Part shown: in pieces, positions 4,512 through 57,105 of the stretch
Layout: every line of letters begins with the position of its first letter
How positions within the stretch are numbered: position 1 is the stretch's first letter
Source: Patescibacteria group bacterium
Lineage (GTDB): Bacteria > Patescibacteriota > Minisyncoccia > Minisyncoccales > UBA5738
NCBI GenBank assembly: GCA_034678605.1
Contig: JAXDBQ010000039.1
Location: 1,172-65,171, forward strand
Reading direction: 5' to 3'
Length of the DNA stretch: 64,000 nucleotides
Made by a program: the position numbers and the translations under genes
The notes under the pieces: model-generated
Told to the model about the DNA's origin: nothing
The model's input: the letters and a program-made list of their open reading frames with translations, nothing else
Databases searched by the model: none

Positions 4512-4547
4512 AAATGTAGAGTGTAAAGCGAAAAGTGTAAAGCGAAA

Positions 4548-9227: not shown

Positions 9228-9890
9228 ATGAATACCATTGTTTCTACCATTTCGAAATTGATATTGGGGGCGCCGATAAGAATGATGCTGATCAAAGAGA
9301 TCCGCGGCAAGGAAAACATCCCGGCCGGCGGTTTTATCTTGGCATCCAATCATTTGAGCCATTCGGATTGGTTTATGAGCGGTTATATCTGCGCGCCCAA
9401 AAAATTCGCGTTTATCGGCCAAGTGGATCAATACAATACGGGTTTCAACGCGATTTGGCGGCGGTTGATCTATTGGTGGGGCAGCACCATTCCCATTGAC
9501 CGCAAAAGCGGCGAATCAAAAAAACAAGCCATGGAAAGAGCGGTGAAAATGCTCAAAGACGGGTATCGCGTAATTATTTATCCCGAAGGCGGCCGGGCCT
9601 ATGACGGCGTGATGCGCCAATTCAAGGCCGGCGTGGCAATATTGCATTTGGAAAGCGGAGCGCCGATTTTGCCGGTGGCGTTTAGCGGAACGCGGGAGAT
9701 CATGCCGCCTCATGGAAAAATCAAATTAAAAAAAACCGTGCGGATTAATATCGGCAAACCGTTGGATTTTTCCCGGGAAAGGCAAATTGCCGCCAAACTG
9801 GATAAGGATTCCCATGCCTATCACGGGCTTTGCGCCGACGTGGCCAAAAAAGTGGAGGACGAAGTCCGGCTCCTCGCTGATGAAATTTAA
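9228..9890 (+). CDS. plsC: 1-acyl-sn-glycerol-3-phosphate acyltransferase family (PlsC-like), paralog 2
   Basis: NHLSHSDW, YPEGGRAYDG, APILPV. It has the same length (220 aa) and layout as paralog 1. Confidence 0.8.
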   Translation: MNTIVSTISKLILGAPIRMMLIKEIRGKENIPAGGFILASNHLSHSDWFMSGYICAPKKFAFIGQVDQYNTGFNAIWRRLIYWWGSTIPIDRKSGESKKQAMERAVKMLKDGYRVIIYPEGGRAYDGVMRQFKAGVAILHLESGAPILPVAFSGTREIMPPHGKIKLKKTVRINIGKPLDFSRERQIAAKLDKDSHAYHGLCADVAKKVEDEVRLLADEI

Positions 9891-10032
9891 ATTCGAATAT
9901 CGAATATCGAAATCCGAAACAATATCGAATATCGAAATTTAAAATTTTCAAAACAAAAAAAGAATTTCGTTTTGAACATTTGAAAATTCGAATTTGTTTC
10001 GATATTCGATATTCGTGCTTCGGATTTTGCTT
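9891..10032. repeat. Word-hairpin family A, copy A3
   Basis: aaattcgaatatcgaatatcgaaatccgaaacaatatcgaatatcgaaattt ... gaaaattcgaatttgtttcgatattcgatattcgtgcttcggattt. Confidence 0.8.
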
Positions 10033-11568
10033 ATGATGAAGATCGATAAAATTCTTATTGCCAACCGGGGAGAGATCGCATTGCGGATTATCCGCACTTG
10101 CCGCGAGATGGGCATTAAGACCGCGGCGCTTTGCCCGCGGCCGGGGATGGAGCACAATTTTTTGGAAACGGCATTGGCCGACGAGTTTTATTATCTGGAT
10201 GCCGACGGATCGGCCGGTTATTTGGATAAGGAAAAGATCATCGGGATCGCCAAAAAATGCAAGGCAAGCGCAATCCATCCCGGCTATGGTTTTTTGGCCG
10301 AAAACTGGCAGTTTGCGCTGGCTTGTGAAAAGAACCGGATAAAATTCATCGGGCCGCATTTTAAGACCTTGCGCGCTTTGCAGGACAAGGTCGAGGCCAA
10401 AAAGATCGCCAAAAAAGTGGGCATTCCCACGGTGCCGGCCAGCGACCAATCAATCAAAAGCAAAAAAGATCTGATCAAGTGGGCCCAGCGGATCAAGCCG
10501 CCGTTTATCATCAAAGCCCAGCGCGGCGGCGGCGGCATGGGGATTCGCGTGGTCAATGGCCAGATGAATTATGAAGAAATGATGTCGCTTACGTTGGGAG
10601 TCCAGCGCCAGATATCCGGCGCGTTTTCCGACGCGGATTTCTTTTTGGAAAAATATCTGCCCGAAGTCAAGCATATTGAATTTCAAATTTTGGGCGACGG
10701 CAAAAACGCGGTGCATTTGGGAGAGCGGGAATGTTCGATCCAACGCCGGTTTCAAAAATTGGTGGAAGAATCGCCGTCGGCCGCCTTGGACGCCGATTTG
10801 CGCGCCAAGATGGGCGGCTGGGCGGTGAAAATTGCCGAATATCTGCGTTATGAGGGCGCGGCCACGGTGGAATTTTTGCTGGACATTGACAAAAATTTTT
10901 ATTTCATGGAAGTTAATCCGCGCATTCAAGTGGAGCATCCGGTGACCGAAGCCGTGACGGGAATTGATATCGTGGAGCAACAAATCAAAATCGCGCGGGG
11001 AGAGCGATTGGCGTTTGGGCAGGAAAGCGTTTTTCAAAACGGATGGGCCATCGAGGTGCGCGTGAACGCCGAGGATTCGCGAAAAAACTTCATTCCTTCG
11101 CCGGGAATCGTGGCCAAATACATTCCGCCGCAAGGCCAGGGAGTGTTTACGCACAGCTTTTTGCAGGATGGCCAAGTTGTCTATCCTTATTTTGACTCGC
11201 TGCTGGCCAAGATCATCGCCTATGGCAAAGATCGCGATTCGGCGATCAAAAAATTGAAGCGCGCTTTGGGCGAAACCTCGATCGACGGCGTGGCCACCAC
11301 GATTCCGTTTTTCAAGCTTTTATTGGAAAAGGAAGAATTTTTACAAGGTAATTTTTTCACCAATTACATCGAAAAAAGCGGCATTATCCGCGAATTGATG
11401 CTGGCGCCCTATTGCAAACCGGCGGTTTGCGAGCATAAGGATTTGGAAGAACAAGCCGTGGCCGATATCGCGCACGCGATTTATCGAGAAATCAAAAACA
11501 ACTTGCCTGCGGCCAACGGCAACGGGGTTTCCAAGTGGGTGCTGGCCGACCGAATCGCCGAAGAATAA
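10033..11568 (+). CDS. accC: Biotin carboxylase subunit of an acyl-CoA/acetyl-CoA carboxylase
   Basis: KILIANRGEIALRIIRTCREMGI, HPGYGFLAEN, GGGGMGIRV, MEVNPRIQVEHPVTE. ATG at 10033; the track start at 9994 lies in repeat A3. Confidence 0.9.
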   Translation: MMKIDKILIANRGEIALRIIRTCREMGIKTAALCPRPGMEHNFLETALADEFYYLDADGSAGYLDKEKIIGIAKKCKASAIHPGYGFLAENWQFALACEKNRIKFIGPHFKTLRALQDKVEAKKIAKKVGIPTVPASDQSIKSKKDLIKWAQRIKPPFIIKAQRGGGGMGIRVVNGQMNYEEMMSLTLGVQRQISGAFSDADFFLEKYLPEVKHIEFQILGDGKNAVHLGERECSIQRRFQKLVEESPSAALDADLRAKMGGWAVKIAEYLRYEGAATVEFLLDIDKNFYFMEVNPRIQVEHPVTEAVTGIDIVEQQIKIARGERLAFGQESVFQNGWAIEVRVNAEDSRKNFIPSPGIVAKYIPPQGQGVFTHSFLQDGQVVYPYFDSLLAKIIAYGKDRDSAIKKLKRALGETSIDGVATTIPFFKLLLEKEEFLQGNFFTNYIEKSGIIRELMLAPYCKPAVCEHKDLEEQAVADIAHAIYREIKNNLPAANGNGVSKWVLADRIAEE

Positions 11569-11714
11569 AATCCGAAGCACGAAATCCGAATATCGAAACA
11601 AATTCGAATTTTCAAATTTTTAAAAGTTCAAAACGAAATTCATTTTTTGTTTTGAAAATTTTAATTTTTGATATTCGATATTGTTTCGGATTTCGATATT
11701 CGATATTCGAATTT
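11569..11714. repeat. Word-hairpin family A, copy A4
   Basis: aaatccgaagcacgaaatccgaatatcgaaacaaattcgaattttcaaattt ... gaaaattttaatttttgatattcgatattgtttcggatttcgatattcgatattcg. Confidence 0.8.
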
Positions 11715-16730: not shown

Positions 16731-16824
16731 AAAAGTTAAAAGCGTAAAGCGAAAAGCGTAAAGCAAGAATGCGGCTTTGTATTTTTACTTTGCGTTTTGC
16801 ACTTTTAGTTTTGCGCTTAATATT
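16731..16824. repeat. Word-hairpin family B (gtaaagcg/gcaaagcg words), full hairpin
   Basis: aaaagcgtaaagcgaaaagcgtaaagcaagaatgcgg | ctttgtatttttactttgcgttttgcacttttagttttgcgc. Confidence 0.8.
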
Positions 16825-30896: not shown

Positions 30897-30990
30897 TTTT
30901 AGCGCAAAGCGCAAAGCGTAAAGCGCAAAGTAAAAATGCGGATTTTGAATTTTACTTTTAGTTTTTCGCTTTAAGTTTTACGCTTTTACT
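30897..30990. repeat. Word-hairpin family B, full hairpin
   Basis: agcgcaaagcgcaaagcgtaaagcgcaaagtaaaaatgcgg | attttgaattttacttttagtttttcgctttaagttttacgctttt. Confidence 0.8.
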
Positions 30991-36321: not shown

Positions 36322-36690
36322 ATGTTAAAACAAACCCTGTTTAAAATCGTGCTGATAGTTGGCTTGATGTTCGCGGGAGCGGTTGGTTATTTTAATCCGA
36401 TAACGGTTTTAGCCGCTGGCGAACCGGTGGAATTGAAAAGCCCGATTGAGGGCGATTTGACGATTCCGGGGATTATTGAAAAGGTGATTGGCGTAATCTT
36501 TTGGCTGGGGCTGTTGATTTGCCCGGCATTCATCATTTGGGGTGGGTTTGAGATCGCCACGGCCGGCGGCGACCCCGCCAAAATCGGCAAGGGCAAACAA
36601 ATAATTTTTTACGCCATCGGCGGGTTGGCCATTATCGCGCTTTCCCAAGTGCTGGCCGCGATCGTGAAATCCGCGCTGGGCGGCGATTAA
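36322..36690 (+). CDS. TrbC/VirB2-like pilin family protein, paralog 2
   Basis: VIGVIFWLGLLICPAFIIWGGFEIATAGGDPAKIGKGKQIIFYAIGGLAIIAL. Confidence 0.65.
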   Translation: MLKQTLFKIVLIVGLMFAGAVGYFNPITVLAAGEPVELKSPIEGDLTIPGIIEKVIGVIFWLGLLICPAFIIWGGFEIATAGGDPAKIGKGKQIIFYAIGGLAIIALSQVLAAIVKSALGGD

Positions 36691-36710
36691 TAATTTTTTA
36701 ATTAAAAAAC

Positions 36711-37082
36711 ATGCTTCAAAAAATCAAATCCGCGAAACGCCCCCTGGAAATTTCCGCCGCGCTTTTAACCGCCGCGATTTTATCGCTTCCGTCAAAAATT
36801 TTGGCCGATGTTAGCGTTCCCAGCGTTGAAGTGCCCACTGATTTGGATGTCGATGAGATGTTGGGAAAGATTCGTAATTATTTTTTTGGAATTGTGATCG
36901 CGGCTTGTGTTTTTATGATTTTATGGGGTGCGTTTGATATTGCCACGGCCGGGGATAATGAAAACAAGCTTAAAGGTGGCAAGGATAGAATAAAATACGC
37001 TCTCATTGGTTTATTGATTGCCGCGATGGCAAGCGTGATCGTCGGTATTGTGATGAGTATCGCGAAAGTTGACGTTCCTTAA
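36711..37082 (+). CDS. TrbC/VirB2-like pilin family protein, paralog 3
   Basis: FFGIVIAACVFMILWGAFDIATAGDNENKLKGGKDRIKYALIGLLIAAM. Confidence 0.65.
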   Translation: MLQKIKSAKRPLEISAALLTAAILSLPSKILADVSVPSVEVPTDLDVDEMLGKIRNYFFGIVIAACVFMILWGAFDIATAGDNENKLKGGKDRIKYALIGLLIAAMASVIVGIVMSIAKVDVP

Positions 37083-37158
37083 TTGTTTTGATGGTTATTG
37101 TCAAAAAAAATACAATCATTATAATTAAAATATAAATTAATTGTAAAAAATAATTAAA

Positions 37159-37527
37159 ATGAAAAAAATATTCGCGTTTTTTTTAATGGGGTTGTTGATT
37201 GCTCCGGTGATGGCTTTTAGCCAAGAGTCCATTGTTCCCAAGGCCGATTCAACGATGGCAGGACAGATTGGCGCAGCCGGGAAAATGTCAACCCAGCCGA
37301 TTGATCAAACGCTTAATACCGTAGCCAATTATGCTATTGGAGTATTGATCATTGTGGCGGTGTTTTATATAATCTGGGCGGGATATACTTTTGTGGCGCA
37401 TGGCACCGATCCTGATTCCGTGGCCAAGGCGCGCCAGCGGATAATGTTTGCCGGAGTCGGCGTAATTGTGGCGTTATTGGCTAAAGGAATTGTATCTCTG
37501 GTGTTGAGCGCGATGCAGGGCAGTTAA
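37159..37527 (+). CDS. TrbC/VirB2-like pilin family protein, paralog 4
   Basis: YAIGVLIIVAVFYIIWAGYTFVAHGTDPDSVAKARQRIMFAGVGVIVALL. Confidence 0.6.
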   Translation: MKKIFAFFLMGLLIAPVMAFSQESIVPKADSTMAGQIGAAGKMSTQPIDQTLNTVANYAIGVLIIVAVFYIIWAGYTFVAHGTDPDSVAKARQRIMFAGVGVIVALLAKGIVSLVLSAMQGS

Positions 37528-37856: not shown

Positions 37857-37880
37857 AAAAAGCCGCCTTGGGCGGCTTTT
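37857..37880. terminator. Bidirectional intrinsic terminator (tRNA-Leu on +, hsp20 on -)
   Basis: aaaagccgcc ttgg gcggctttt, a perfect stem flanked by A- and T-runs. Confidence 0.8.
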
Positions 37881-37884
37881 GGTC

Positions 37885-38562
37885 TTATCCTCTCACGGCC
37901 ACTTTCTTTTTTTTCTCGCGCACGATCTTGGGAATGCGGATGGTCAAGATGCCGTCTTTTGCCGCGGCTTCGGCATGGCCTGAATCCACTTCCACCGGCA
38001 GGATAACTTTGCGCGAAAACGGCCCGAAATAGCATTCTTCGATGAAGTAATCGCCGCGATCGTCAATGGGGTTGGGGCGGTTGCCCTTGATGTTGATCAC
38101 GTCGTCTTCGATCACCACGTCCAAATCCTCGACCCGCACGCCGGCGATCGCCGCTTGCAGGATCAGGTCATAATCGGTTTGAAAAACATTAACGGCCAGC
38201 TGAGCCTCGCTTGATTTGAGCCAGCCGCTTTGGTCGGCGGTTTTTTTGTTTATCATGGTTTTTTTGGTAGTGGTTTTAGTGGCCGATTTTTCCTTGGCGG
38301 CCTTTTGGCCGTTGTCGGAATTGTTTGGCGCGCCGGTTATTTTGTCAACATTGGCGGCGGTGATCATCTTTTCGCCGCCGGAGGGTGGATATTCTTCCAA
38401 GGTCGGGATCCCTTTTTTGGGCTTGGCTTTATAGGCGGCAAACGCCGCGGCATTGCCTTCGTTGGCCGGTTCTTGGTTTATTCGACCGCTTGCCGGATCG
38501 CCGTTGGGATTTTCATCATCCGCGGCTGGCATGCTTTTGCGCAATTTTTCGAGGAAAGACAT
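37885..38562 (-). CDS. Hsp20/alpha-crystallin small heat-shock protein with a long disordered N-terminal extension
   Basis: The C-terminal domain reads AVNVFQTDYDLILQAAIAGVRVEDLDVVIEDDVINIKGNR ... FSRKVILPVEVD...AAAKDGILTIRIPK. Confidence 0.85.
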   Translation of the reverse strand: MSFLEKLRKSMPAADDENPNGDPASGRINQEPANEGNAAAFAAYKAKPKKGIPTLEEYPPSGGEKMITAANVDKITGAPNNSDNGQKAAKEKSATKTTTKKTMINKKTADQSGWLKSSEAQLAVNVFQTDYDLILQAAIAGVRVEDLDVVIEDDVINIKGNRPNPIDDRGDYFIEECYFGPFSRKVILPVEVDSGHAEAAAKDGILTIRIPKIVREKKKKVAVRG

Positions 38563-38612
38563 AGAAGTGTAAAGTTAAAAGCGTAAAGCGTAAAGTAGAA
38601 ATGCGGGAGCGG
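38563..38612. repeat. Word family B, left arm of a split hairpin
   Basis: gtgtaaagttaaaagcgtaaagcgtaaagtagaaatgcggg is complementary to the arm at 38985-39058. Confidence 0.75.
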
Positions 38613-38620
38613 GAAGTGGA

Positions 38621-38980
38621 TTAACCTTTTTGCTTTCTTAATGTTAAAACGCTTGAACCCAATATATTAGCGATTTCTTTGGTTTCTTTAAGCAATTGAT
38701 CTATTTTGTCGAAATTTATTTTATTAGAATCTTTTAATAAGTTGATCCAAAAAATACTTTCATTCGCCGATTTCAAAGCGTAGCAGAAAAAATTGGTGAA
38801 ATCTTTTTTTGTTGAGCCGGCTTGGGCTTCGGTAATGTTCGCGCCAATACTTGTCGCGCTTCTCAAAAGTTGTCGAGCAATTATTTGGGTCGATAAGTCT
38901 TTTTTATCGGCGGAATCAATAAATTTGATAATTTCCAGCGCATATAAATAAGCGCGTTGCTTGACTTCAATGCGAGGCAT
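38621..38980 (-). CDS. Four-helix-bundle protein of the 23S rRNA intervening-sequence protein family
   Basis: AYLYALEIIKFI ... IARQLLRSATSIGANITEAQAGSTKKDFTNFFCYALKSANESIFWINLL is the canonical family signature. Confidence 0.8.
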   Translation of the reverse strand: MPRIEVKQRAYLYALEIIKFIDSADKKDLSTQIIARQLLRSATSIGANITEAQAGSTKKDFTNFFCYALKSANESIFWINLLKDSNKINFDKIDQLLKETKEIANILGSSVLTLRKQKG

Positions 38981-38984
38981 TTTG

Positions 38985-39058
38985 TTTTTAATTTTAAACT
39001 TGCATTTTTCGCATTCTGCATTCTTACTTTACGCTTTTCGCTTTACGTTTTGCGCTTA
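38985..39058. repeat. Word family B, right arm of the split hairpin
   Basis: tgcatttttcgcattctgcattcttactttacgcttttcgctttacgttttgcgcttact. Confidence 0.75.
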
Positions 39059-39866
39059 CTCCGCAGACGCTTTTTTGGCGCAAAAGCCATTGAAATTGAA
39101 TGTAAAGGGAAATTGCCATTAACAAAATTATCGCCAAAGGAACCAGCAAAAACGAAAGGTCGCTCTCGCTCTTAATTATAGAAAAATTATAAAGGCCGTG
39201 CAAGCAAGAGCAGATGGCAAAGCCGGCCAATAGGGTGGCGAACTTTTTTTGGGGCCGGCAAAAGGCCTTGGCCATGTAAAAACCGATGATCCCCGAGCAA
39301 AGCGTGTGCAACAAAATGGCGCTCATCGAGCGGAAAAGCGAAATGAAAATCAGGTCGGCGGTGTTGCCGGGCAAAAGCAACACCCCGCCGATTAATTTTT
39401 GTTGCACTTCGGGAAGCAGGAATAGTAAATTTTCCACGGCCGCGAATCCCAGCGCCGCAGTGATCATGTAGATCACAAAATCCACCGGCTCGTCCAGATG
39501 CCGGTTTTGTTCGGCGGCTTGTTCCTTCACCCAAACCGCGAAATATTTGGCCAGTTCCTCGATCAGCGCGATGGCCACGATGTTGGTGAAAAGCATGGCC
39601 ATAATCCCGGGAAGGCCAAGCGCGCCAATGGCATTGATCAAAAACATTTCAAACGCCACCGCCGGCGCGGTCATCAGCGCCCCCAGGCAAAACACCCAGA
39701 TAATCTGTTTTTTTGGTTCCGGATGCCGGTCGCGGCGCAGATAGAACAGCAACCACAAAAGGCAGGGGAGCACCCCGGCCGCCAGATAGACCGCCAGCGA
39801 ACCGGCGGTTTGCGAAACATTGGCCAGCGCCATCAGCGCCGCGTCGAAAGAGAAATTATCCATCAA
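39024..39866 (-). CDS. prsW: PrsW-family intramembrane metalloprotease
   Basis: Multi-TM protein with ALIEELAKYFAVW (EExxK) and later AAVENLLF and HTLCSG-type motifs. Confidence 0.7.
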   Translation of the reverse strand: MMDNFSFDAALMALANVSQTAGSLAVYLAAGVLPCLLWLLFYLRRDRHPEPKKQIIWVFCLGALMTAPAVAFEMFLINAIGALGLPGIMAMLFTNIVAIALIEELAKYFAVWVKEQAAEQNRHLDEPVDFVIYMITAALGFAAVENLLFLLPEVQQKLIGGVLLLPGNTADLIFISLFRSMSAILLHTLCSGIIGFYMAKAFCRPQKKFATLLAGFAICSCLHGLYNFSIIKSESDLSFLLVPLAIILLMAISLYIQFQWLLRQKSVCGVSAKRKAKSVK

Positions 39867-40045
39867 TCACATTTTACCCTTTTGCGGCAAAACCGCCAAC
39901 CATTGACTTTGAGCAAAAGTTATTTTAGAATCCACGCAGGATCAAAGGATGAGCAAATTCAAAATTTAATATCCTGTTTGGAGTGTTTGATTTTGGATTT
40001 GCGCGGACAGAATGACATTGAACATAGTTGAGGAGGGTGAAAGGA

Positions 40046-46494: not shown

Positions 46495-46544
46495 AAGTTA
46501 AAGCGAAAAGCGTAAAGTAAAATGCAGAAGTTGAATTTTGCGTT

Positions 46545-51282: not shown

Positions 51283-51378
51283 TATAAAATCGTAAAGCGA
51301 AAAGTGTAAAGTGAAAAACAAGATGCGGTATCCGTATTTTTGTTTTGCGCTTTGCGCTTTAAGTTTTTCGCTAAAAAC
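51283..51378. repeat. Word-hairpin family B in the divergent elp3/ybaB spacer
   Basis: aaatcgtaaagcgaaaagtgtaaagtgaaaaacaagatgcgg | tatccgtatttttgttttgcgctttgcgctttaagtttttcgc. Confidence 0.8.
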
Positions 51379-52519: not shown

Positions 52520-53584
52520 TTGGGATTTAGGATTTCAATTGAAATTGTGGATTTGAGCAAATTGGAAACGATATTGGCGGGGGAGCCGGCCTACCGGGCC
52601 AAGCAGGCGCGGGAGGCGGTTTTTGGTTCATTGATCGATGATTGGAGCCAGGCGCGGGAATTGCCTGAAAATTTGCGCCAAAAATTGGCGGCAGAGTGTT
52701 CGCTTGATATCAACGCCGAAATTTTCCATTCAAAAGACGGCGCTTCGGCCAAAGCGCTGATAACTTTGGCCGACGGAGCAAAGATCGAAACCGTGCTGAT
52801 GCGGCATGGCAGCCGCCCGCGGGCGAGCCTCGCCTTTCAGGCGGGCCGGAATACGGTTTGCGTGTCGTCGCAGGTCGGCTGCCCGATGGGGTGCGCTTTT
52901 TGCGCCACCGGCAAAATGGGTTTCAAGCGGAATTTATCGGCCGATGAAATTGCGGAACAGGTTTTGCTTTTCGCGCGGATTTTGAAAAAAGAAGGCCGGC
53001 GGGTTGACAACGTGGTTTTTATGGGAATGGGCGAGCCGTTCTTGAATTATGCCAATGTGATGGCCGCGGTTAAAATTTTAAACGACCAGCGGGGGTTGAA
53101 TATCGGCGGCCGCCATATTTCGATCTCCACTTGCGGAGTTGTCGAGGGAATCGAAAAGCTTGTCGATGAACCGATCCAAGTTAATTTGGCAATTTCGCTG
53201 CACGCGCCCAACGATGCTTTGCGTTCGAAGCTGATGCCGATCAACGCCAAATATCCGTTGAAAAAACCGGTCGAAACCATCGCGCATTATATCGAAAGAA
53301 CCAACCGGAGGGTGATGCTTGAATACATAATGATCGACAAGGTCAATGATTCGGATGATTGCGCCCGGGAACTGGCCGACCTGGTGAAAACGCGATTATC
53401 GCCCAAATTGGCGTTCGTCAACCTGATCCGCTACAACCCGACCGGAGAATTTTTGGCGTCGCCGCCGGAACGGGTAAAAGCTTTCAAGGATATTTTGATG
53501 AAAGCCGGTGTGGAAACCACTGAACGTTATCGCTTCGGCCGCCAGATCAAGGCCGCTTGCGGCCAATTGGCGGCCAAAAGTTAA
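52520..53584 (+). CDS. rlmN: 23S rRNA/tRNA (adenine-C2)-methyltransferase RlmN (radical SAM)
   Basis: YRAKQ..., CVSSQVGCPMGCAFCATG, GMGEP, SLHAP. The start is uncertain (TTG 52520 lies in repeat C; GTG 52547 is plausible). It contains an in-frame G-element at 52813-52849. Confidence 0.9.
   Translation: MGFRISIEIVDLSKLETILAGEPAYRAKQAREAVFGSLIDDWSQARELPENLRQKLAAECSLDINAEIFHSKDGASAKALITLADGAKIETVLMRHGSRPRASLAFQAGRNTVCVSSQVGCPMGCAFCATGKMGFKRNLSADEIAEQVLLFARILKKEGRRVDNVVFMGMGEPFLNYANVMAAVKILNDQRGLNIGGRHISISTCGVVEGIEKLVDEPIQVNLAISLHAPNDALRSKLMPINAKYPLKKPVETIAHYIERTNRRVMLEYIMIDKVNDSDDCARELADLVKTRLSPKLAFVNLIRYNPTGEFLASPPERVKAFKDILMKAGVETTERYRFGRQIKAACGQLAAKS
52813..52849. repeat. G-family GC mini-palindrome inside the rlmN CDS
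   Basis: ccgcccgc g ggcgagcctcgcc tttcag gcgggccgg. It encodes ..SRPRASLAFQAGR.. between the conserved LMRH and NTVCVSSQVGC blocks. Confidence 0.8.
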
Positions 53585-53673
53585 GCGAAAAGCGCAAAGA
53601 GCAAAGCGTAAAACAAGAATTCGAAATGCGTATTTTGCTTTAAGTTTTTCGCTTTTCGCTTTACACTTCCATT
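53585..53673. repeat. Word-hairpin family B, full hairpin
   Basis: gcgaaaagcgcaaagagcaaagcgtaaaacaagaattcg | aaatgcgtattttgctttaagtttttcgcttttcgctttacac. Confidence 0.8.
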
Positions 53674-54557: not shown

Positions 54558-54611
54558 AGCGTAAAGTTTAAAGCGCAAAGCGCAAAGTGAAAATACAAAA
54601 GCGCAGGCAAA

Positions 54612-56780: not shown

Positions 56781-57105
56781 AGTTAGCACGCGCATTGAGC
56801 CCCATGGTTTGTCTTTGGACGATTTCAAAAAAGGGCGAAGCCCCATTGTGCCGGAAATTAAAAGCACGGGCTTGAAATTGGAATAACCAAAGCGATTTGT
56901 CGATTTATAAAACAAAAATTAAACTTTGACCGTCGCGAAAAATCCTCACAGCGGTTTTTTTTGATCTTGTTTGAAAAACTAAACAAATAGAAAAAATTTG
57001 ACATTTTGTGGCGGGGGGCGGTAATTTCACTTTATCCGGCGGTTTTGGTAGAATTAATTATTGGTATTTTTACTTTGCGCTTTGCGCTTTAAGTTTTTCA
57101 CTTTT

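What the first reader, a model, noticed from the sequence alone, without database searches (positions are those of the whole stretch)
38563..39058. A 23S-rRNA-intervening-sequence-family four-helix-bundle gene sits exactly in the apex of a family-B hairpin
In intact B hairpins the arms meet at ...gtaaagt(a)agaatgcgg | ...tttttacttt. At 38563-38612 the left arm ends ...gcgtaaagcgtaaagtagaaatgcggg. Its complementary arm (tgcattcttactttacgcttttcgctttacg...) resumes only at about 39010. The roughly 370 bp in between hold one gene (38621-38980, minus strand) of the family originally found inside 23S rRNA intervening sequences, which are themselves stem-loop insertions. A gene of this family embedded in the loop of a long stem outside rRNA suggests the gene-plus-stem unit is a mobile or processed cassette. 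It also suggests the word hairpins may be related to IVS-type stems.
Basis: partly seen in the sequence, partly recalled or inferred. Interest (0 to 1): 0.65.

Follow-up and report, generated by a model that had tools for sequence, protein, structure and literature searches.

The report
Four-helix-bundle gene cassette inside repeat hairpin
A small conserved gene of unknown function sits, together with its own pair of inverted repeat arms, between two genes of an operon, built like the 'intervening sequences' known from ribosomal RNA genes; homologues in many bacterial phyla show the same layout, so this looks like a widespread, overlooked kind of gene cassette.

Summary
A 119-aa PF05635/TIGR02436 four-helix-bundle (4HB) gene (38621-38980, minus strand) lies between two complementary arms (38565-38604 and 39018-39057) built from GCGTAAAG-type 7-nt words. 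It sits inside a PrsW-4HB-HSP20 operon.

Relatives carry the same PrsW|HSP20 junction without the gene. One has an intact B hairpin whose two halves align to the window's two arms. Two have hairpins of other word families. Three have no hairpin.

The layout holds across the family. In 78 homologous loci from many phyla, none inside rRNA, 59 have flanks more complementary than 99% of shuffles. Both arms show 7-nt periodicity. Arm words track protein similarity rather than the coarse host label, and 58 of 70 cassettes lie co-directionally between host genes. The protein is under strong purifying selection (dN/dS 0.05).

This matches the anatomy of the 23S rRNA intervening sequence (IVS): a stem, heptamer repeats and an S23p ORF. 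Here it sits in an mRNA operon.

I read it as an IVS-type cassette, gene plus arms, acquired at this junction. RNase III processing and the way it moves are inferred, not shown. I found no description of this in the searchable literature.

The parts
39018..39057 (-). 5' arm of the cassette. On the transcribed minus strand it is A-rich: AAGCGCAAAACGTAAAGCGAAAAGCGTAAAGTAAGAATGC. The last 11 codons and the stop of PrsW lie inside it.
   Evidence: It aligns to the left half of the empty hairpin in L100 (82% over 62 nt).
38981..39017 (-). A-rich leader between the 5' arm and the ATG of the 4HB gene (AGAATGCGAAAAATGCAAGTTTAAAATTAAAAACAAA). It has no Shine-Dalgarno motif.
   Evidence: read directly from the sequence.
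38621..38980 (-). Four-helix-bundle protein gene (119 aa), PF05635 / TIGR02436, carrying the R-x3-S-x3-N-x2-E motif.
   Evidence: PDB 2rld_A matches at E 5e-13. dN/dS against the L011 orthologue is 0.046.
38605..38620 (-). Short trailer after the stop codon (TCCACTTCCCGCTCCC). The CCACTTCCCGC core is shared with the orthologous cassette in L011.
38565..38604 (-). 3' arm of the cassette. On the minus strand it is T-rich: GCATTTCTACTTTACGCTTTACGCTTTTAACTTTACACTT. It ends 2 nt before the HSP20 start codon.
   Evidence: It aligns to the right half of the empty hairpin in L100 (75% over 52 nt). It is 89% identical to the L011 arm.
39024..39866 (-). Upstream host gene: PrsW-family intramembrane protease.
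37885..38562 (-). Downstream host gene: HSP20/alpha-crystallin.
39871..39899 (-). Promoter-like site upstream of PrsW (TTGGCG-17-TAAAAT). No comparable site lies directly upstream of the 4HB gene.
   Evidence: This is a consensus match only.
37858..37880 (-). Canonical intrinsic-terminator-like hairpin plus T-run just after HSP20. It would be the end of the PrsW-4HB-HSP20 operon.
16735..16825 (.). Gene-less ('empty') B-family hairpin between two co-directional genes. Others lie at about 24017-24100, 30900-30990, 51290-51360 and 53580-53665.
   Evidence: Folds give -25 to -31 kcal/mol.
4521..4547 (.). Solitary A-type B arm with no partner. Other solitary arms: A-type at 46503-46530 and 54559-54590, and T-type at 57060-57100, downstream of a promoter-like TTGACA hexamer at about 56999.

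Best explanation
This is an IVS-type gene cassette located outside ribosomal RNA. A promoterless four-helix-bundle gene (PF05635/TIGR02436) is carried, in the sense orientation, between two imperfect inverted arms of about 40-55 nt made of tandem ~7-nt words. The whole unit fills the space between the stop codon of PrsW and the start codon of HSP20, in an operon with a promoter-like site upstream of PrsW and an intrinsic-terminator-like hairpin after HSP20.

Shown:
- Gene and arms form one unit that recurs at unrelated junctions in many phyla.
- Arm words co-vary with the protein.
- The unit is absent from the same junction in six related lineages. One of these has a solo B hairpin homologous to the two arms.
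- The protein is under strong purifying selection.
- The arms are far better conserved than synonymous sites.

Inferred:
(a) The cassette, and the hairpin, were acquired at this junction. The gene-less hairpins of the same word family are either its targets or its gene-less derivatives. One possible route, not tested here, is recombination between the shared arms.
(b) When the operon is transcribed, the arms pair into a stem of about 25 bp that encloses the 4HB mRNA. This is the kind of substrate that RNase III cuts in 23S rRNA intervening sequences. The cassette is therefore probably cut out of, or at least processed within, the operon transcript.
(c) The conserved pentameric 4HB protein probably acts on the heptamer-repeat arms.
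For: Anatomy at the locus.

Same junction in relatives:
- L001-L007 (same species) and L011/L012 (4HB 86% identical) have PrsW-4HB-HSP20 with arms.
- L099, L100, L101, L103, L105 and L106 have PrsW directly followed by HSP20.
- L100 has an intact B hairpin there. Its halves align to the window's arms, with the break in the loop.
- L101, L105 and L106 have no hairpin.

Family-wide, across 78-80 loci:
- Flank complementarity has a median score of 30, against 16 for shuffles. 59 of 78 loci exceed the 99th percentile of shuffles.
- A locus's own 3' arm is the best partner in 14 of 78 cases, against about 1 expected. The median rank is 9, against 39 expected.
- Only 16 of 297 control ORFs reach a score of 28, against 47 of 78 4HB genes. 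Four of those 16 high scorers are themselves extra 4HB paralogues.
- Both arms have 7-nt periodicity.
- Arm 6-mer similarity tracks protein identity (rho 0.58, Mantel 0 of 999), with no effect of the host label.
- L077 has three cassettes in one operon, each with its own arm family.
- 58 of 70 cassettes have both neighbours co-directional, with gaps of about 35 and 62 nt.
- None of the 80 loci lies in rRNA.

Selection and conservation: dN/dS is 0.046 with dS 1.8, yet the arms are 87-89% identical between W and L011.

Operon signals: no promoter-like site lies directly upstream of the 4HB gene, although a weak 9-of-12 match overlaps its 3' arm just upstream of HSP20; the best consensus signals bracket PrsW...HSP20.

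Precedent: the Coxiella 23S IVS has a 28-bp terminal stem, an S23p ORF in the loop, tandem heptamers 5' of the ORF and RNase III excision (PMC4990558).
Against: Nothing here shows RNA processing.

Mismatches in the stems show no preference for G.U on the coding strand (72 G.T/T.G against 91 A.C/C.A). At this locus the antisense strand would form the more stable stem (-51.8 against -36.8 kcal/mol). Family-wide the sense strand is only modestly favoured (50 against 29 loci, p = 0.02). The complementarity may therefore reflect DNA-level inverted repeats (protein-binding ends) rather than selection for an RNA stem.

The direction of change cannot be resolved between the nearest clades. Relative to L100, gain of the gene and loss of the gene each cost one event.

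No presence/absence polymorphism was found among near-identical strains. No target-site duplication is visible. No transposase or nuclease is encoded.

About a quarter of homologous loci lack a clear arm on one side, and one (Bernardetia) is flanked by direct repeats.

Host labels in the co-variation test are coarse and come from MAG record titles.
Confidence: 0.6

Rival explanations
1. Host-hairpin target model. The word hairpins are a resident feature of the host's intergenic regions. A bare 4HB gene, without arms of its own, was inserted into the loop of the hairpin already present between PrsW and HSP20. The arms are therefore host sequence and not part of the element.
For: An intact B hairpin sits at the orthologous junction in L100, and its two halves align to the window's arms. 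B hairpins far outnumber 4HB genes in the window: at least 9 against 1. L011, L008 and L083 show nested double arms, as if something had entered the apex of an existing hairpin.
Against: Arm words follow protein similarity, not the host label. Three cassettes in one operon of one genome each have a different, self-complementary arm family. The same 23-nt arm string occurs at unrelated sites in different genomes (L008, L011, L100). The nested arms in L011 imply that the incoming unit already carried arms.
Confidence: 0.2
2. Two independent half-elements. The A-rich array is simply a 3' trailer or 5' leader, and the T-rich array is the leader of the next gene. Their complementarity is an incidental result of low-complexity word composition. 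There is no stem and no cassette.
For: Solitary A-type and T-type arms exist next to ordinary genes in the window (4521, 46503, 54559, 57060). Stems are only about 80% paired and show no G.U bias. Heptamer repeats directly upstream of start codons are known in other bacteria without any 4HB gene (PMC4679880).
Against: Own-partner specificity is high: rank 1 in 14 of 78 loci, median rank 9 against 39 expected. Nostoc punctiforme has perfect 30-nt arms. Among the 297 control ORFs only 2 reach a score of 28 with the same polarity, and one of those two is itself a 4HB paralogue. The two arms align to the two halves of a single hairpin in L100.
Confidence: 0.07
3. Remnant or accessory gene of a diversity-generating retroelement (DGR). 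In this reading the 4HB protein is an Avd that works with a reverse transcriptase.
For: PF05635 is the family that includes or resembles DGR Avd (PMC10053308).
Against: The neighbours are PrsW, HSP20, T4SS pilins and a methyltransferase. No reverse transcriptase is called within about 2.4 kb upstream and 3.2 kb downstream of the gene on the same-species contig. A template/variable repeat pair was not specifically searched for. The same holds for the other contexts examined.
Confidence: 0.02

Closest known systems
23S rRNA intervening sequences that carry an S23p ORF (Leptospira, Coxiella burnetii, Brucella, Haemophilus)
   Same: The protein family in the loop is the same (PF05635). Both have terminal inverted repeats that form a stem of about 25-30 bp enclosing the ORF. 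Both have tandem heptamer repeats immediately 5' of the ORF. Both are in the sense orientation within a host transcript and have no promoter of their own. Horizontal spread was proposed for the IVS (PMC4990558; Ralph & McClelland 1993 as cited there).
   Different: The host transcript here is an mRNA operon (the PrsW|HSP20 junction), not helix 9, 25 or 45 of 23S rRNA. No rRNA is present in the window or in any of the 80 homologous loci. The ORF is under strong purifying selection here, whereas the Coxiella ORF is reported as decaying and untranslated. RNase III cleavage is demonstrated for the IVS and untested here.
REPIN-RAYT systems (a REP-associated tyrosine transposase flanked by REP hairpin repeats)
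   Same: A single gene is bracketed by inverted copies of a short palindromic repeat. That repeat is also scattered, without the gene, through the intergenic regions of the same genome. The comparison rests on my own knowledge of REPIN/RAYT.
   Different: The protein is a 119-aa four-helix bundle with no HUH/Y1 transposase domain. The repeats are arrays of 7-nt words rather than a fixed REP sequence. Mobilisation by the protein is pure conjecture.
DGR accessory protein Avd
   Same: The fold family is homologous, a pentameric four-helix bundle (PMC10053308).
   Different: No reverse transcriptase is called among the neighbouring genes; a template/variable repeat pair was not searched for. The cassette is a stand-alone unit inside housekeeping operons.
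MITEs and TIR transposons; integron gene cassettes
   Same: Both comparators involve short inverted terminal repeats, gene-less copies that outnumber gene-bearing ones, and a promoterless ORF inserted co-directionally.
   Different: There is no transposase or integrase, no target-site duplication is visible, and there is no attI/attC array.
Intergenic tandem heptanucleotide repeats (cyanobacterial STRR; TAACTGA repeats of Beggiatoaceae)
   Same: These are 7-nt tandem words placed directly upstream of start codons in intergenic regions (PMC4679880; STRR is from my own knowledge). The Nostoc punctiforme 4HB gene is flanked by (CAATTCG)x4 and (TTGCGAA)x4.
   Different: Those repeats are described as direct arrays and have not been linked to a 4HB gene. 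Here they occur as complementary pairs around one gene family.

Membership tests
PF05635 / TIGR02436 four-helix-bundle ('23S rRNA IVS protein', S23p) family | Profile HMM score above the curated cut-off | tested here: met
   Pfam gives 78.1 bits against a cut-off of 33.8. TIGR02436 gives 87.4 bits against a cut-off of 24.
PF05635 / TIGR02436 four-helix-bundle ('23S rRNA IVS protein', S23p) family | Conserved motif (G)xxRxxxSxxxNxxE | tested here: met
   The translation reads LLRSATSIGANITEAQ, which contains R-x3-S-x3-N-x2-E. The motif is as given in PMC3936711.
PF05635 / TIGR02436 four-helix-bundle ('23S rRNA IVS protein', S23p) family | Four-helix bundle that assembles into a homopentamer | not tested
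   Only sequence similarity to the solved chain 2rld_A was obtained (E 5e-13). No structure was predicted.
23S rRNA intervening sequence (IVS) | Inserted in a helix of a 23S (or 16S) rRNA gene | tested here: not met
   Rfam finds only four tRNAs in the window. The flanking genes are PrsW and HSP20.
23S rRNA intervening sequence (IVS) | Terminal inverted repeats that form a stem enclosing the element | tested here: met
23S rRNA intervening sequence (IVS) | S23p-family ORF in the loop, in the sense orientation to the host transcript | tested here: met
   The gene is on the same strand as PrsW and HSP20.
23S rRNA intervening sequence (IVS) | Tandem heptamer repeats just 5' of the ORF, as in Coxiella | tested here: met
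   A 7-nt periodicity is seen in the arms of the 80 loci and in the window arm. The Coxiella feature is from PMC4990558.
23S rRNA intervening sequence (IVS) | Excision from the precursor RNA by RNase III | not testable with these tools
   This needs RNA end mapping or an in vitro cleavage assay.
DGR accessory variability determinant (Avd) | Adjacent reverse transcriptase and a template/variable repeat pair | tested here: not met
   The gene lists around the locus contain no reverse transcriptase; a template/variable repeat pair was not searched for.
REPIN-RAYT | Gene flanked by inverted copies of a repeat that is dispersed through the genome | tested here: met
REPIN-RAYT | The gene encodes an HUH/Y1 (IS200/IS605-like) transposase | tested here: not met
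   Only PF05635 is detected.
TIR transposon / MITE | Target-site duplication flanking the terminal inverted repeats | tested here: inconclusive
   No duplication is apparent when the filled junctions (W, L011) are compared with the empty one (L100). The sequences are too diverged to exclude a short one.

The most novel reading that the evidence does not exclude
The PF05635/TIGR02436 four-helix-bundle proteins may be the dedicated partners of heptamer-word hairpin repeats. In this reading a pentameric ring binds the arm of roughly five heptamers and drives the spread or maintenance of both the gene-bearing cassettes and the many gene-less word hairpins. The hairpins would include the classical 23S rRNA IVS stems, and possibly the long-unexplained intergenic heptamer repeats of cyanobacteria and other bacteria. 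This would amount to a new class of mobile element without a transposase, analogous to REPIN-RAYT.
Probability: 0.2. Interest if true: 0.85.

Novelty: new variant of a known kind. Interest (0 to 1): 0.7.

Why it matters
PF05635/TIGR02436 'four helix bundle protein' genes are among the commonest unexplained small genes in bacterial genomes. They have been read as functional members of whatever operon they sit in, for example cas loci (PMC3936711).

If they are self-contained cassettes with their own heptamer-repeat arms, several things follow:
- Their operon neighbours say nothing about their function.
- The 23S rRNA IVS becomes one special case of a general element that also invades mRNA operons.
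- The abundant intergenic word hairpins of CPR genomes, and perhaps heptamer repeats elsewhere, gain a testable origin.
- The protein gains a concrete candidate ligand, its own arms, which can be tested by binding assays.

Tried and rejected
1. RNA-level versus DNA-level stem. I counted non-Watson-Crick pairs in 59 stems. G.T/T.G came to 72 and A.C/C.A to 91, which is not significant. Strand-specific duplex energies favour the sense strand only modestly (50 against 29 loci, p = 0.02) and favour the antisense strand at this locus. No conclusion can be drawn.

2. Recent mobility. I looked up contigs encoding exactly the window's HSP20 and PrsW to find strains without the cassette. Only contigs with the cassette were found, or no record at all.

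3. Polarising gain against loss. The NJ tree of PrsW+HSP20 puts the two cassette-bearing lineages as weak sisters next to the L099/L100 pair. Relative to L100, gain and loss are equally parsimonious. Only relative to the deeper lineages (L101, L103, L105, L106) is the cassette clearly derived.

4. Known RNA families. Rfam gives nothing but tRNAs.

5. Defence or phage families. PADLOC and PHROGs give no hits.

6. DGR reading. Rejected because no reverse transcriptase is nearby.

7. Terminator reading of the word hairpins. Rejected as the main role, because the operon ends in a canonical GC-stem-plus-T-run terminator while the word hairpins sit at internal junctions.

8. Sharing of 11-mers between foreign cassette arms and the window's other hairpin families. 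There were 1517 hits against 621 for a coding-DNA control. The control is not matched for composition, so I give this no weight.

9. Literature. Seven full-text searches and several papers were read. None describes non-rRNA PF05635 genes flanked by inverted heptamer arrays. Ralph & McClelland 1993 is not held, and most subscription journals are not searchable, so prior description cannot be excluded.

Full report
THE LOCUS

On the minus strand the order is PrsW-family protease (39866..39024), then a 119-aa ORF (38980..38621), then HSP20 (38562..37885). The small ORF is a clear member of PF05635 (78 bits, cut-off 33.8) and of TIGR02436 'four helix bundle protein' (87 bits, cut-off 24). Its only relative with a solved structure is 2rld_A (E 5e-13).

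The repeat finder reports inverted arms at 38565-38604 and 39018-39057. They are 40 nt long, 78% complementary and 413 nt apart. Read on the transcribed strand, the layout runs as follows:
- the PrsW coding sequence, whose last 11 codons and stop lie inside the arm;
- an A-rich arm of GCGTAAAG-type words;
- a 37-nt A-rich leader;
- the ATG, the 4HB ORF and its stop;
- a 16-nt trailer;
- a T-rich arm of CTTTACGC-type words, which ends 2 nt before the ATG of HSP20.

The two arms co-fold at -39.6 kcal/mol, against -21.5 +/- 4.0 for shuffled arms. In a fold of the whole 516-nt transcript, both the MFE and the centroid structures pair the arms and enclose the ORF.

A promoter-like site lies upstream of PrsW, and a canonical terminator-like hairpin with a T-run follows HSP20. 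No promoter-like site lies directly upstream of the 4HB gene; the only one between the two signals is a weak 9-of-12 match overlapping the 3' arm just upstream of HSP20. The cassette therefore sits inside a three-gene operon and appears to have no promoter of its own.

THE WORD-HAIRPIN BACKGROUND

The arms belong to a repeat family that is common in the window. The 15-mer GCGTAAAGCGTAAAG with up to 2 mismatches occurs 22 times, against 0.14 expected.

Complete, gene-less hairpins of this family sit between co-directional genes at about 16735, 24017, 30900, 51290 and 53580. In each case the A-type arm follows a stop codon and the T-type arm abuts the next ATG. Solitary arms also exist at 4521, 46503, 54559 and 57060.

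Several ordinary genes are flanked by long-range inverted matches. These turn out to be two complete hairpins in neighbouring spacers, not a split hairpin. The 4HB gene is the only gene in the window that lies inside a split hairpin.

THE SAME JUNCTION IN RELATIVES

Contigs of the same species (L001-L007), and a relative whose 4HB protein is 86% identical (L011/L012), carry PrsW-4HB-HSP20 with the arms. In L011 the arms are doubled and nested, and each A-type arm pairs with a T-type arm across the gene.

Six other lineages keep the whole neighbourhood (PrsW, HSP20, T4SS pilins, methyltransferase) but have PrsW directly followed by HSP20. These are L099, L100, L101/102, L103/104 (Nealsonbacteria), L105 and L106. 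Their junctions differ:
- L100 has an intact, empty B hairpin.
- L099 and L103 each have a hairpin of a different word family.
- L101, L105 and L106 have a plain 44-50-nt spacer.

The window's 5' arm aligns to the left half of the L100 hairpin (82% over 62 nt). Its 3' arm aligns to the right half (75% over 52 nt). The two alignments meet in the L100 loop.

A distance tree of PrsW+HSP20 gives (window, L011), (L099, L100), L103, L101, (L105, L106). Relative to the deeper lineages, both the hairpin and the gene are derived. Relative to L100, gain and loss of the gene are equally parsimonious.

L099 and L100 are close to each other (PrsW 81% identical), yet they carry unrelated hairpins at the same junction. 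These hairpins therefore turn over quickly.

THE LAYOUT IS A FAMILY RULE

More than 1,600 homologues were found. Many are about 70% identical across different CPR classes and other phyla. Close homologues at other junctions have the same A-type arm upstream and T-type arm downstream. Examples are a PrgI/TraC/TraG operon (L008) and a junction between two glycosyltransferase genes in Yanofskybacteria (L013-L018).

A scan of one genome per species returned 80 loci. They came from Patescibacteria of many classes, Omnitrophota, Planctomycetota, Actinomycetota, Ignavibacteria, Acidobacteria and others. None of them lies in an rRNA gene.

The results across these loci were:
- In 71 of 80 the upstream 50 nt are A-rich and the downstream 70 nt are T-rich. 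Both flanks show a 7-nt periodicity that is absent inside the gene.
- The complementarity score of the 120-nt flanks has a median of 30, against 16 for shuffles. 59 of 78 loci exceed the 99th percentile of shuffles.
- A locus's own 3' flank is the best partner of its 5' flank in 14 of 78 cases, where about 1 is expected. The median rank is 9, where 39 is expected.
- Among 297 other ORFs in the same DNA, 16 reach the score that 47 of 78 4HB genes reach. Four of those 16 high scorers are further, more divergent 4HB paralogues.
- The words differ between lineages while the two arms stay complementary. Examples are GCGTAAAG, AATCAAAA, TTACAATGAACAAT, AGTCATAAGTC and ATGATGAATG.
- Arm 6-mer similarity follows protein identity (Spearman 0.58, Mantel 0 of 999). 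At a given protein identity it is the same for pairs with the same or different host labels.
- One Saccharibacteria operon (L077) holds three cassettes at successive junctions. Each has its own self-complementary word family.
- Of 70 loci with enough flank, 58 have both neighbours on the same strand. The median gaps are 35 nt upstream and 62 nt downstream.

Cultured organisms show the same pattern. In Nostoc punctiforme pNPUN02 the gene is flanked by perfect (CAATTCG)x4 and (TTGCGAA)x4 arrays. In Treponema saccharophilum it is flanked by long GAAAGNG/CTCTCCG heptamer arrays. Bernardetia is an exception, with direct repeats.

About a quarter of loci lack a convincing arm on one side.

SELECTION

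Between the window and L011, the 4HB gene has dN 0.08, dS 1.8 and dN/dS 0.046. It is a functional protein gene, unlike the decaying Coxiella ORF.

The arms are 87-89% identical between the same two genomes. Synonymous sites in the enclosed gene are near saturation, and the flanking proteins are only 57-70% identical. The primary sequence of the arms, and not only their pairing, is therefore maintained. The cause could be constraint or homogenisation among copies.

HOW IT PROBABLY WORKS

Shown: gene plus arms is a recurrent, co-evolving, sense-oriented, promoterless unit that occupies whole intergenic junctions and is absent from this junction in relatives.

Inferred: it was acquired here. Solo hairpins of the same family are either its targets or its gene-less derivatives. 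I raise recombination between the 40-50-bp arms shared by filled and empty copies as a possible transposase-free route; it was not tested, and I offer it only because no transposase is encoded.

Inferred from precedent: once transcribed, a stem of about 25 bp should be an RNase III substrate. RNase III excision is demonstrated for 23S IVS elements with the same anatomy. The Coxiella element has a 28-bp terminal stem, an S23p ORF in the loop and three tandem heptamers 5' of the ORF (PMC4990558).

I could not find support for selection acting on the RNA stem specifically. There is no G.U excess on the coding strand. At this locus the antisense strand is the more stable one, and family-wide the sense strand has only a modest advantage. 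The inverted arms may therefore be primarily DNA-level, protein-binding ends. That would fit their sequence conservation and their repeat structure of about five heptamers, but it remains conjecture.

COMPARISON WITH WHAT IS KNOWN, AND NOVELTY

The element has every tested anatomical feature of an S23p-bearing 23S IVS except the defining one, location in rRNA. It is therefore not an IVS in the strict sense, but it is built like one.

It is not a DGR Avd, because no reverse transcriptase is nearby. It resembles REPIN-RAYT in genome architecture, but it has no HUH transposase.

An earlier survey found 18 genes of this family inside cas operons and read them as CRISPR-associated (PMC3936711). The present data suggest they are simply cassettes that landed there. 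The Anabaena cylindrica copy between cas2 and cas1 is an example.

I found no paper describing inverted heptamer arms around non-rRNA members of the family. The searchable library omits most subscription journals, so this absence is not proof.

I rate the finding as a new variant of a known kind.

Noticed in passing
L099 3310-3460 and L100 990-1090: These two relatives are close (PrsW 81% identical, HSP20 72%), yet they carry hairpins of unrelated word families at the same PrsW|HSP20 junction. Three deeper relatives (L101, L105, L106) have no hairpin there. The word hairpins themselves are gained and replaced quickly.
   Followed up: partly
L077 520-2900 (uncultured Saccharibacteria, CAYIDV010000001.1): Three 4HB cassettes sit at three successive junctions of one operon. 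Each has a different, self-complementary arm family: GGGTGTTGGGTTTTGGG/CTAACACCTAACACCC, TTTTAAATTCTAAATTTTAAA, and AATATCAAAAATCAAAAA. In the first, the upstream arm is G/T-rich rather than A-rich.
   Followed up: partly
window 39024-39057 (minus strand); C-termini of PrsW in L099 and L103: The PrsW reading frame runs into the A-rich arm, so its last residues (...SAKRKAKSVK) are encoded by repeat words. Relatives with other hairpins likewise end in Lys/Asn-rich tails (NAKLKNQKSK, NARLKNQNGK). Hairpin insertion rewrites the C-terminal tail of the host protein.
   Followed up: partly
L108 1420-1880 (Nostoc punctiforme PCC 73102 plasmid pNPUN02): The annotated four-helix-bundle gene is flanked by perfect (CAATTCG)x4 upstream and (TTGCGAA)x4 downstream. 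This suggests a link between this gene family and the long-known, unexplained tandem heptanucleotide (STRR-type) repeats of heterocystous cyanobacteria. That link is from my own knowledge and was not tested.
   Followed up: no
L110 1280-1930 (Treponema saccharophilum plasmid pTS1): The 4HB gene is preceded by a long array of GAAAGNG heptamers followed by its complement (CTCTCCG words). A further CTCTCCG-type array follows the gene. The arm arrangement is more complex than a simple split hairpin.
   Followed up: no
L107 1027-3118 (Anabaena cylindrica PCC 7122 plasmid pANACY.01): A 4HB gene lies between cas2 and cas1 on the opposite strand. It is flanked by AAAGTAAAAAG-type word arrays. This is in line with the 2013 report of this family inside cas loci, and with the cassette being an intruder rather than a Cas component.
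   Followed up: no
L109 1400-1960 (Bernardetia sp. plasmid): Here the 4HB gene is flanked by a direct repeat (CTTCTAAAATCTAAC), not an inverted one. This is an exception to the rule.
   Followed up: no
window 38560-38612 / 39005-39062: At this locus the arm duplex is predicted to be clearly more stable on the antisense (plus) strand, -51.8 against -36.8 kcal/mol. This is because most transition mismatches are A.C on the coding strand.
   Followed up: partly
window 10033-11568 (plus-strand coordinates, ORF of 512 aa): The flanks of this ORF gave the highest inverted-repeat score of all control genes (157). This is apparently because complete hairpins of the ATATCGAAAT word family (9889-10027 and about 11620-11675) sit on both sides.
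   Followed up: no
window 56999-57103: A solitary T-type B arm (57060-57100) lies between a promoter-like hexamer (TTGACA at about 56999) and the ATG of the next gene. The T-type arm therefore also occurs alone, as a 5' leader at the start of a transcription unit.
   Followed up: no
window 36322-37527: Three tandem paralogous genes of about 122 aa, of T4SS-pilin (TrbC-like) type, lie next to the operon, and the same-species contig L001 shows a fourth (111 aa). This block plus a methyltransferase gene is conserved in all relatives examined.
   Followed up: no
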